A stretch of DNA of 64,000 bases from Shigella phage ESh19: the sequence record ON528729, one strand, 5' to 3'. The notes under the pieces are model-generated. The model did not search any database and was not told the origin of the DNA. It saw nothing but the letters and a program-made list of their open reading frames with translations. Below, piece by piece: positions 45,306 to 45,560 of this stretch (the stretch's first letter is position 1; each line of letters opens with the position of its first letter). Made by a program: the position numbers and the translations under genes.

Positions 45306-45560
45306 ATTAAATCTTTGTAGAGAACTGCTAAGACACCAAAGCAACAATGGTATTAAACATCTTAACAATTCTCTAAAAAGACCTATTGGCCTTTGCGTAG
45401 TCTTCTTTAATCCGGTGACTAGAACCTTTGGAGAGCTTGATGCTATCTCTTCTCCGTGACACCTACTAGGTGCTTTGTCAGTGCCGTGTACGCCAATACA
45501 CGAAGAGGAAACCTGAAACACTTGCCCGAACAGCGAGTCCCAGCTTTAAATCTTATTAGG

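What the first reader, a model, noticed from the sequence alone, without database searches (positions are those of the whole stretch)
45306..45560. 255-nt structured non-tRNA spacer inside the tRNA island (candidate small RNA)
No tRNA T-loop signature and no ORF with a start/RBS (the track ORF 45237..45521 uses a non-ATG start and overlaps a tRNA). Several local hairpins are present (GGAGAGCTTGATGCTATCTCT, CGTGTACGCCAATACACG). T4 encodes stable non-tRNA RNAs within its tRNA cluster, so processed small RNAs are plausible here.
Basis: inference. Interest (0 to 1): 0.55.

Follow-up and report, generated by a model that had tools for sequence, protein, structure and literature searches.

The report
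Conserved structured RNA in phage tRNA island
The 253-base gap between two tRNA genes of this Felix O1-like phage is a conserved, seven-hairpin non-coding RNA element that no database describes, and it lies downstream of a phage gene for a Ro60-like RNA-binding protein, a possible but untested partner.

Summary
Window 45306-45558 is a 253-nt non-tRNA, non-coding spacer between tRNA-Ser(tga) and tRNA-Leu(tag), all read on the - strand. The window is an Ounavirinae phage, 99% identical to Citrobacter phage Michonne. The spacer is present in about 253 phage records and in IMG/VR and metagenome contigs.

Its roughly 100-nt core is almost invariant. It stays about 82% identical in a lineage whose protein genes are only 66-68% identical. 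In 45 distinct sequences, 98.5% of cells in eight helices stay paired, against 35-51% when partners are slid. Six pairs show compensatory changes. About 270 G·U cells mean the structure works only on the tRNA strand. The 5' hairpin (P1) occurs in about six unrelated sequence versions, and all of them fold.

Nothing matches in Rfam, tRNA/tmRNA models, T4 rnaC/rnaD, E. coli genomes or GTDB genomes.

Best reading: a stable ncRNA cut out of the tRNA precursor. It belongs with other phage tRNA-island RNAs of unknown function (T4 species 1/2, ROOL, GOLLD, drum). Expression and function were not tested.

New lead: the gene heading the island (48048-49463) has a Ro60/TROVE fold, so this or a neighbouring spacer could be its Y-RNA-like partner. 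Canonical Y-RNA features are absent here.

The parts
45544..45558 (-). 5' border: UAAUAAGAUUUAAAG, directly after the tRNA-Ser 3' end. It contains AAGAUUUAA, one copy of a flanking direct repeat.
   Evidence: family D20: 14 of 17 identical with the 3' border. Conserved in all loci. In L034 and L043 the stop codon of an inserted endonuclease-like ORF lies inside it.
45513..45543 (-). P1: hypervariable two-part hairpin, followed by a U-rich variable linker (45503-45512).
   Evidence: 20 distinct versions in about 6 unrelated sequence families. Every one folds into a hairpin at this position, dG -6.9 to -14.6, all z<0.
45485..45502 (-). P2 hairpin: CGUGUA-UUGGCG-UACACG.
Evidence: 100% of cells paired; only wobble-compatible changes.
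45459..45473 (-). P3 hairpin: GCACCU-AGU-AGGUGU, with an invariant loop.
   Evidence: Closing pair G.U in 34 sequences and A-U in 11; A-U to G.U in L038.
45430..45455 (-). P4: GGAGA...UCUCC with inner GAU/AUC mini-hairpin. Only the apical loop varies.
Evidence: G-C to G.U in L032.
45395..45425 (-). P5: GU/GC plus UAGUC/GACUA stem, with a nearly invariant 14-nt loop ACCGGAUUAAAGAA.
   Evidence: Compensatory U-A to C-G change in L038 and L059.
45377..45394 (-). P6: AAAGGCC-AAUA-GGUCUUU hairpin followed by UU. It looks like a weak terminator. Loop length and sequence vary.
   Evidence: A-U/G.U and C-G/U.G alternation. Not called by the terminator scan. The U run is broken in L038 and L059.
45318..45375 (-). 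P7: 16-bp stem UAGAGAAUUGUUAAGA/UCUUAGCAGUUCUCUA enclosing inner hairpin P7b (45335-45351, ACCA/UGGU), whose loop carries the invariant UUGUUGCU.
   Evidence: 4 pairs with changes on both sides, 99.6% of cells paired. L038 has a largely rewritten but complementary stem.
45306..45317 (-). 3' border: CAAAGAUUUAAU, the second copy of the repeat, abutting the tRNA-Leu 5' end (the RNase P site).
   Evidence: In Michonne and L020 an HNH endonuclease gene starts right after it.

Best explanation
The interval encodes a discrete non-coding RNA of about 250 nt, made on the - strand as part of the polycistronic tRNA precursor. Sigma-70-like promoters lie upstream at 46382-46354 and 47939-47910, and no strong promoter or terminator lies inside the interval. 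The RNA folds into seven successive hairpins, P1 to P7. RNase P cleavage at the 5' end of tRNA-Leu would define its 3' end. 3' maturation of tRNA-Ser would define its 5' end, possibly with RNase E cutting in the single-stranded AAG|AUUUAA motifs at both borders. That would release it as a stable RNA, as with T4 species 1 and 2 RNAs. Sequence is nearly invariant in stems, junctions and the P3, P5 and P7b loops, while the apical loops of P1, P4b and P6 vary. That pattern suggests a compact fold or a tightly bound partner, so I take it to act as an RNP or trans-acting RNA during infection. Shown here: conservation, RNA-level structure on the tRNA strand, non-coding nature, a fixed place between tRNA-Ser(tga) and tRNA-Leu(tag), and absence from known families. 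Inferred: transcription, processing, stability and any trans function.
For: The element is present in 253 phage records, 28 IMG/VR contigs and 21 metagenome loci. It always lies between tRNA-Ser(tga) and tRNA-Leu(tag). The core is nearly invariant over about 100 nt. Against L059, the core is 82% identical where protein genes are 66-68% and tRNAs 67-100%. Structure counts: 98.5% of 2424 cells paired, against 35-51% for slid partners; 6 pairs with double changes; 0 of 500 shuffles reach any of the five measures. About 270 G.U cells would be A.C mismatches on the + strand, and the fold z-score is -2.77 against -0.86. P1 is a hairpin in all 20 variants. The element stays intact when endonuclease genes insert at either border. 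Indels of 1, 2 and 7 nt in P1, J2/3, the P4b loop and the P6 loop rule out a conserved ORF. Precedent exists for structured RNAs in phage tRNA islands: T4 rnaC/rnaD and ROOL/GOLLD (PMC12286853). ROOL and drum occur in a Listeria phage tRNA array.
Against: There is no expression data. I found no transcriptome of a Felixounavirus. Most helices (P2, P3, P4, P6) show only one-sided wobble changes or none, so their support is 'never broken' rather than true covariation. Much of the compensatory signal comes from one divergent lineage (L038/L059) and from the Moogle/Felix split, so it reflects few independent events. The sequences are closely related, which inflates the shuffle control. Other long spacers in the island also end in a long hairpin just upstream of a tRNA, which fits a generic cis role at least for P7. 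The element is absent from Kolesnikvirus and from Yersinia phage P778-like relatives, so it is dispensable for this kind of tRNA island.
Confidence: 0.5

Rival explanations
1. The element is a purely cis-acting processing or insulating structure of the tRNA precursor. The hairpins, especially the 16-bp P7 just upstream of tRNA-Leu and the weak terminator-like P6, would guide RNase III, E or P, pause or attenuate RNA polymerase, or keep neighbouring tRNAs folding independently. The excised piece would then be degraded and have no function of its own.
For: Two other long spacers end in, or consist of, a long hairpin directly 5' of the next tRNA. Spacer 46150-46396 ends in a 16-bp hairpin followed by AAAGAUAAU and tRNA-Arg. 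Spacer 44805-44900 is one 96-nt hairpin. Both borders carry an AU-rich motif resembling the RNase E consensus RN|WUU (the consensus is from my own knowledge). P6 resembles a weak intrinsic terminator.
Against: A processing signal does not explain about 100 nearly invariant nucleotides, including the loops of P3, P5 and P7b. Most tRNAs in the same island are separated by only 2-8 nt with no such structure. The P6 U-tract is broken in L038 and L059 while the stem is kept. The Felix O1 paper lists no terminator here (PMC3185647).
Confidence: 0.25
2. The element is the Y-RNA-like partner of the phage's Ro60-like protein (48048-49463). It would bind the protein ring and tether or gate a host exoribonuclease such as PNPase, reshaping RNA turnover or tRNA and rRNA quality control during infection.
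For: The 471-aa protein (Pfam DUF2828 + DUF7788; PHROG 850 'RNA-binding protein') was modelled at pLDDT 88.8. Its nine best full-length PDB matches are all Ro60, TROVE or Rsr, with E from 4e-8 to 6e-6 and TM up to 0.65. The top match, 9KOP, is a Thermus phage Ro60 that binds two adjacent phage Y-like RNAs and host PNPase (PMC12135203). A P100-like Listeria phage has three highly transcribed non-coding regions within 2 kb upstream of its Rsr-like gene (PMC12282133). In LMSP-25 the homologous gene follows a tRNA array carrying ROOL and drum and precedes RtcB. In mycobacteriophage Nicholas a YrlA-like hit lies right after the homologous gene. Every lineage with the element has the Ro-like gene, and phiEa21-4 has neither.
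Against: No YrlA or Y_RNA model hit at E<=10. No CGAA or GGUCCGA-type motif. No tRNA-like module. The only 5'-3' terminal pairing is six A-U/G.U pairs. The element is 2.5 kb and nine tRNAs away from the gene, and in a separate transcription unit: a terminator-like hairpin and promoters lie at 48037-47910. Yersinia P778-like phages keep the Ro-like gene but lack the element. Other spacers are equally good candidates.
Confidence: 0.15
3. The conservation is at the DNA level. The interval would be a homing-endonuclease recognition or landing region, a recombination hotspot homogenised by repeated gene conversion, or a promoter for the downstream tRNAs, rather than an RNA with a function.
For: Free-standing endonuclease genes sit at both borders in some relatives: HNH in Michonne and L020, and a PD-(D/E)XK-like ORF in L034 and L043. 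A direct repeat flanks the element. tRNA-Leu(tag) next door exists as two very different alleles, and P1 types are shuffled among lineages. The invariant TTGTTGCTT followed 18-19 nt later by TA(A/C)AAA loosely resembles -35 and -10 boxes.
Against: About 270 G.U cells, and the fact that changes in stems are almost always pair-preserving on the - strand only, are not expected for a DNA site. Compensatory changes occur in P5 and P7. The hypervariable P1 keeps its hairpin. The promoter scan finds nothing in the interval, and the putative -10 lacks the final T. Gene conversion would not leave a hypervariable patch 40 nt from an invariant core.
Confidence: 0.07
4. The interval is decayed tRNA genes, an endonuclease-gene remnant, or a small protein gene such as Felix O1 'ORF46'.
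For: 253 nt is about three tRNA lengths. Felix O1 and some other records annotate a hypothetical protein here. Two reading frames are open across the core.
Against: No tRNA-like signal. Conservation is far above neutral decay. Felix O1 ORF46 starts inside tRNA-Ser and crosses P1, whose length differs by 1-11 nt among phages. A 1-nt deletion in the P4b loop (L028) and 1-2 nt indels in the P6 loop shift every frame. There is no ATG with a ribosome-binding site.
Confidence: 0.03

Closest known systems
T4 species 1 and species 2 RNAs (rnaC, rnaD)
   Same: Non-tRNA stable RNAs encoded inside a phage tRNA cluster on the tRNA strand. A homing endonuclease gene (segB) lies in the same cluster. Function is unknown. 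Combined length of about 260 nt is similar (PMC2330249).
   Different: No sequence or structure similarity. The core covariance model scores nothing within rnaC or rnaD. Its best hit, 10.7 bits, is the operon terminator region. The T4 RNAs end in tRNA-like T-arm and acceptor sequences, which this element lacks. They sit at the end of the cluster, not between two tRNAs.
ROOL, GOLLD and drum RNAs (ornate ncRNAs near phage tRNA islands)
   Same: Structured, conserved, protein-independent-looking RNAs of unknown function embedded in or beside phage tRNA arrays (PMC12286853). In Listeria phage LMSP-25, ROOL and drum lie in a tRNA array next to a homologue of the same Ro-like gene.
   Different: No match to any of these Rfam models at E<=10. 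The element is much smaller than ROOL (about 550 nt) and GOLLD (more than 800 nt). It is a linear string of hairpins with no pseudoknot detected. Its host range is narrow: Felixounavirus, Mooglevirus, SUSP2-like phages and one metagenomic lineage.
Y RNAs / YrlA (partners of Ro60/Rsr), including phage Yrl1 and Yrl2 of Thermus phage phiLo
   Same: Modular stem-loop ncRNA encoded in the neighbourhood of a Ro60-fold protein gene in a phage (PMC12135203, PMC4201824).
   Different: It fails the YrlA and Y_RNA models. It has no CGAA-bearing bulge between a 5'-3' stem, no tRNA-like domain, and is not adjacent to the gene (2.5 kb away).

Membership tests
tRNA / pseudo-tRNA | Cloverleaf with T-loop, detectable by ARAGORN or Rfam RF00005 | tested here: not met
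   No call in 45306-45558 by ARAGORN or by Rfam at E<=10.
T4 species 1/2 RNAs | Sequence or structure homology to rnaC or rnaD | tested here: not met
   Model R1 with filters off on the T4 region gives no hit within rnaC or rnaD.
T4 species 1/2 RNAs | Encoded within the tRNA operon on the tRNA strand | tested here: met
T4 species 1/2 RNAs | Accumulates as a stable processed transcript | not testable with these tools
   No RNA data available. No Felixounavirus transcriptome found.
Y RNA / YrlA | Match to Rfam YrlA (RF02553) or Y_RNA (RF00019) | tested here: not met
   No hit in the interval at E<=10. The same search does find a YrlA-like hit next to the homologous gene in mycobacteriophage Nicholas.
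Y RNA / YrlA | Stem formed by the 5' and 3' ends, flanking a bulge with the CGAA/GGUCCGA Ro-binding motif | tested here: not met
   No CGAA in the element. Terminal pairing is only six A-U/G.U pairs.
Y RNA / YrlA | Encoded next to a Ro60 orthologue | tested here: inconclusive
   A Ro60-fold gene lies at 48048-49463. It is 2.5 kb upstream, with nine tRNAs and a promoter/terminator region in between.
ROOL / GOLLD / drum | Match to the Rfam covariance model | tested here: not met
ROOL / GOLLD / drum | Located in or near a phage tRNA island | tested here: met
   PMC12286853.
Intrinsic terminator (for P6) | G+C-rich stem followed by a run of at least 5 U | tested here: inconclusive
   Not called by the scan. 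The stem is 7 bp with 3 G-C pairs and a UUUUU run partly inside the stem. The U run is interrupted in L038 and L059. Not listed in Felix O1 Table 2.
Group I intron / self-cleaving ribozymes | Match to Rfam models; P3-P7 pseudoknot core; interrupted host gene | tested here: not met
   No Rfam hit. Both flanking tRNAs are complete. The hairpins are serial, not nested.
Protein-coding gene | Reading frame conserved among relatives, with a start codon and ribosome-binding site | tested here: not met

The most novel reading that the evidence does not exclude
The element is a non-canonical Y-RNA analogue. It would be the dedicated RNA subunit of the phage's divergent Ro60-like (DUF2828) protein, produced by tRNA-processing enzymes from the tRNA precursor. 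Together they would form an RNP that recruits a host exoribonuclease to remodel host or phage RNA during infection. That would define a new RNA-recognition mode for the large DUF2828 branch of the Ro60 superfamily, which occurs in about 700 phage genomes.
Probability: 0.15. Interest if true: 0.75.

Novelty: new variant of a known kind. Interest (0 to 1): 0.5.

Why it matters
Felix O1-like phages are classic Salmonella typing phages and widely used biocontrol phages. Yet this element is either unannotated or mis-annotated as a hypothetical protein in the roughly 250 genomes that carry it.

It adds a compact RNA family of about 250 nt to the poorly understood class of structured RNAs in phage tRNA islands (T4 species 1/2, ROOL, GOLLD, drum). 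Unlike most of those, it sits in a phage-host pair that is easy to manipulate genetically (E. coli, Salmonella).

The Ro60-like gene at the head of the island makes a concrete hypothesis testable: that phage tRNA islands supply RNA partners for phage Ro-like proteins.

The invariant core next to a hypervariable but always-folding hairpin, with endonuclease genes at both borders, may also be a natural case of an RNA evolving under pressure from homing endonucleases.

Tried and rejected
- **Rfam.** Searches at gathering score and at E<=10 over the spacer and the whole island found only chance-level hits (MIR1435, Pseudomonas P9).
- **tRNA remnant.** No signal.
- **Host origin.** No match in 5,426 E. 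coli genomes and no exact core pattern in 185,579 GTDB species genomes.
- **Homology to T4 rnaC/rnaD.** None.
- **Paralogues of the core in the window.** None.
- **Homologue in Kolesnikvirus phiEa21-4 and Yersinia P778-like phages.** None, even with filters off.
- **Sigma-70 promoter inside the element.** Not found. The TTGCTT-18/19-TA(A/C)AAA arrangement lacks the -7 T.
- **Hammerhead-like reading of CUGAUAAA in J2/3.** Rejected. J2/3 varies, and no GAAA follows P3.
- **Group I intron idea** (size, U/G at possible boundaries, endonuclease genes nearby). Rejected. Both tRNAs are complete, there is no nested P4-P6 or P3-P7 core, and no Rfam hit.
- **Loop-loop pairing between the P5 loop (AACAA) and the P7b loop (UUGUU).** Not supported. 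The window, L002 and L038 have AAGAA with no compensating change.
- **Pairing of the P1-P2 linker with GGAGAAGAG,** seen in the window's centroid fold. Not conserved in the Felix-type sequences.
- **CGAA Ro-binding motif.** Absent.
- **Complement of the invariant loop (AAGCAACAA).** It occurs nowhere else in the 64-kb window.
- **Literature searches.** Two were unproductive.
- **One script timed out** and was rerun with fewer shuffles.

Full report
**What the window is**

The window is an Ounavirinae phage. The region is 99% identical to Citrobacter phage Michonne and Maleficent (genus Mooglevirus), and it matches 254 Felix O1-like records. ARAGORN finds 25 tRNA genes between 42795 and 47882, all on the - strand. 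Rfam confirms them.

The finding is the gap between two of these genes. tRNA-Ser(tga) at 45559-45648 lies upstream in the direction of transcription, and tRNA-Leu(tag) at 45229-45305 lies downstream. The gap is 45306-45558, which is 253 nt.

**The observation**

- No tRNA, tmRNA or Rfam family matches the gap, even at E<=10.
- The ORFs are short, start with GTG or TTG, or overlap tRNA-Leu.
- As RNA, the - strand folds at -71.5 kcal/mol with z=-2.77. The + strand gives z=-0.86.

**Conservation**

The spacer alone matches 253 phage records: Escherichia, Salmonella, Shigella and Citrobacter phages of the Felix O1 group. Exact-pattern scans recovered it in 28 IMG/VR contigs and 21 metagenome loci.

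In every case checked it lies between tRNA-Ser(tga) and tRNA-Leu(tag). An alignment of 45 distinct copies shows a nearly invariant core of about 100 nt, running from P3 to the start of P6.

The most distant carriers are L038 and L059. In L059 the flanking protein genes are only 66-68% identical to the window at the DNA level. The element's core is 82% identical, and the tRNAs range from 67 to 100%. The core is therefore conserved about as well as the tRNAs.

The element was not found in any of these:
- Erwinia phage phiEa21-4, genus Kolesnikvirus;
- Yersinia phage P778-like contigs;
- 5,426 E. coli genomes;
- 185,579 GTDB species genomes.

**Anatomy, in RNA sense (window coordinates)**

| Part | Coordinates | Description |
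|---|---|---|
| 5' border | 45558-45544 | UAAUAAGAUUUAAAG |
| P1 | 45543-45513 | hypervariable hairpin |
| Linker | 45512-45503 | U-rich, variable |
| P2 | 45502-45485 | hairpin |
| P3 | 45473-45459 | hairpin with invariant AGU loop |
| P4 | 45455-45430 | stem with inner 3-bp hairpin |
| P5 | 45425-45395 | stem with nearly invariant 14-nt loop |
| P6 | 45394-45377 | weak terminator-like hairpin |
| P7 | 45375-45318 | 16-bp stem enclosing inner hairpin P7b |
| 3' border | 45317-45306 | CAAAGAUUUAAU, abutting tRNA-Leu |

The P7b loop carries the invariant sequence UUGUUGCU. The two borders form a 17-nt direct repeat with 14 of 17 positions identical. The core of that repeat is AAGAUUUAA.

**Evidence that the structure is real and is RNA**

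I counted eight helices (54 pairs) on the 45-sequence alignment.
- 98.5% of 2424 cells form standard pairs. When the 3' partners are slid by 1-3 columns the figure is 35-51%.
- Six pairs show changes on both sides.
- None of 500 column shuffles reaches the observed value for any of the five measures.

The clearest compensatory events are U-A to C-G in P5 and several in P7, where L038 has a largely rewritten but still complementary stem.

P2, P3, P4 and P6 show only one-sided changes (G-C or A-U to G.U) or none. They are never broken, but they are not proven by covariation.

About 270 cells are G.U pairs, and these would be A.C mismatches on the + strand. Only four cells in helices 1-7 are unpaired. 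This asymmetry, together with the fold z-scores, puts the structure on the tRNA strand. It argues against a purely DNA-level element.

P1 could not be aligned by sequence. It exists in 20 versions belonging to about six unrelated sequence families. All of them fold into a two-part hairpin at the same place.

Caveats apply. The sequences are closely related, the compensatory signal rests on few independent lineages, and the shuffle control is known to be generous for related sequences.

**Not coding**

Two frames are open across the core. However, P1 length varies by 1-11 nt, J2/3 by 1-5 nt, the P4b loop has a 1-nt deletion in L028, and the P6 loop has 1-2 nt indels. No frame survives these changes.

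Felix O1's annotated ORF46 starts inside tRNA-Ser and is not conserved.

**Surroundings in relatives**

Homing-endonuclease-type genes insert at both borders without disturbing the element.
- In Michonne and L020, an HNH endonuclease gene lies between the 3' border and tRNA-Leu.
- In L034 and L043, a PD-(D/E)XK-like ORF lies between tRNA-Ser and the 5' border. Its stop codon is inside AAGATTTAA.

tRNA-Leu(tag) next door occurs as two very different alleles. This resembles T4, where segB sits in the tRNA cluster (PMC2330249). A possible explanation for the hypervariable but always-folding P1 is escape from endonuclease recognition under an RNA structural constraint. That is inference.

**The element is not unique in the island**

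On the - strand, spacer 46150-46396 folds with z of about -3.9 to -4.65. It ends in a 16-bp hairpin followed by AAAGAUAAU and tRNA-Arg. Part of it (46218-46352) is 80% identical in Erwinia phage phiEa21-4.

Spacer 44805-44900 is a single 96-nt hairpin with z of about -2.7. Long hairpins immediately 5' of a tRNA are thus a recurring theme, which gives some weight to a cis-processing role, at least for P7.

The gene that heads the island on the same strand, 48048-49463 (471 aa), matches Pfam DUF2828 + DUF7788 and PHROG 850, 'RNA-binding protein'.

An AlphaFold2 model built on 33 homologues has mean pLDDT 88.8. Its nine best PDB matches cover the full length and are all Ro60, TROVE or Rsr proteins (9KOP, 2I91, 9NFA, 1YVR, 1YVP, 2NVO), with E from 4e-8 to 6e-6 and TM-scores of about 0.4-0.65. 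The DxSxS MIDAS motif (D279, S281, S283) is invariant.

Homologues occur in 709 phage records, and mycobacteriophage records call them 'Ro-like RNA binding protein'.

Ro60 proteins work with Y RNAs that are usually encoded next to them (PMC4201824). Three phage cases bear on this:
- The Thermus phage Ro60 of entry 9KOP binds two adjacent phage Y-like RNAs and host PNPase (PMC12135203).
- A P100-like Listeria phage has three highly transcribed non-coding regions within 2 kb upstream of its Rsr-like gene (PMC12282133).
- In my own checks, Listeria phage LMSP-25 has the DUF2828 gene right after a tRNA array that contains ROOL (88.5 bits) and drum (50.2 bits), and 1.3 kb before an RtcB ligase gene. 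Mycobacteriophage Nicholas has a YrlA-like hit (37.9 bits, below the gathering score) immediately after its DUF2828 gene.

So the element could be the RNA partner of the Ro-like protein. The direct tests I could run do not support membership in the Y RNA family:
- no YrlA or Y_RNA hit;
- no CGAA motif;
- no tRNA-like module;
- only a weak terminal stem;
- the gene is 2.5 kb away, behind a terminator-like hairpin and promoters.

Yersinia P778-like phages keep the protein without the element. phiEa21-4 has neither. I rate this reading at about 0.15.

**Conclusion**

The interval is a real, conserved, structured, non-coding RNA element on the tRNA strand. No searched database describes it, and the genome records either leave it unannotated or label it a hypothetical protein.

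The most likely mechanism is co-transcription with the tRNAs, followed by release by the tRNA-processing nucleases as a stable RNA that acts in trans or as an RNP (0.5). A purely cis-acting processing role is the main rival (0.25).

It belongs to the known phenomenon of structured RNAs in phage tRNA islands (T4 species 1/2; ROOL, GOLLD and drum; PMC12286853). It is not a member of any of those families. Expression, processing and function remain to be shown experimentally.

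Noticed in passing
window 48048-49463 (- strand): The 471-aa protein heading the tRNA island (Pfam DUF2828 + DUF7788) has a Ro60/TROVE + vWA fold with an invariant MIDAS DxSxS motif. Its top PDB matches are a Thermus phage Ro60 (9KOP), vertebrate Ro60 and Deinococcus Rsr. Homologues occur in 709 phage records.
   Followed up: yes
window 46150-46396 (- strand): A second structured, conserved non-tRNA spacer, with z of -3.9 to -4.65 on the - strand only. It starts with a TTGACA-17-TAAGAT promoter and ends in a 16-bp hairpin followed by AAAGAUAAU and tRNA-Arg(tct). The part 46218-46352 is 80% identical in Erwinia phage phiEa21-4, so it is more widespread than the element studied. It gives only weak tmRNA-type Rfam hits.
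   Followed up: partly
window 45831-45905 (- strand): A tRNA-like sequence with good acceptor and T arms that ARAGORN does not call (tRNA-Sec model, 18.5 bits). The anticodon arm has a 9-nt loop CCUCCAAAA containing CCA, so it may be an odd or pseudo tRNA-Trp. It is conserved in Felix O1.
   Followed up: partly
window 46903-46977 and 47246-47326 (- strand): Two more tRNA-like sequences missed by ARAGORN: Rfam tRNA 29.6 bits and 22.8 bits. The second lies where relatives have tRNA-Tyr(gta), which Felix O1 lists as 'Pseudo (Tyr)' (PMC3185647).
   Followed up: partly
window 44805-44900 (- strand): The 96-nt spacer between tRNA-Thr and tRNA-Val is one long irregular hairpin (dG -30.3, z of about -2.7) and is well conserved.
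   Followed up: partly
L002 (Michonne) 1035-1487; L020; L043 1244-1590; L034: Endonuclease genes sit at both borders of the element in some relatives. An HNH gene lies between the element and tRNA-Leu. Its upstream 11 nt (GGGAGATTGAC) equal the 5' end of the alternative tRNA-Leu(tag) allele. A PD-(D/E)XK-like ORF lies between tRNA-Ser and the element. tRNA-Leu(tag) exists as two very different alleles, GCACC... and GGGAG....
   Followed up: partly
window 44473-44640 (- strand): A small Cys-rich ORF with a ribosome-binding site lies between tRNA-Arg(acg) and tRNA-Leu(caa). It corresponds to Michonne gene 87, annotated as a hypothetical protein.
   Followed up: no
L057 (Listeria phage LMSP-25) 935-1033 and 3422-3973; L058 (Mycobacterium phage Nicholas) 5548-5656: In LMSP-25, drum RNA (50.2 bits) and ROOL RNA (88.5 bits, just under the gathering score) lie inside a tRNA array, directly upstream of a DUF2828 Ro-like gene and an RtcB ligase gene. 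In Nicholas, a YrlA-like hit (37.9 bits) lies in the gap right after the Ro-like gene.
   Followed up: partly
L003 (KC139640, Salmonella phage FSL SP-107): The deposited tRNA coordinates are shifted by about 377 nt relative to where ARAGORN finds the tRNAs. As a result the record appears to annotate tRNA-Thr, Gly and Ala over the element.
   Followed up: yes
L001 (Felix O1, NC_005282) 1757-1846: tRNA-Ser(tga) is found by ARAGORN but is missing from the record and from the published list of 22 tRNAs. The annotated ORF46 starts inside it.
   Followed up: yes
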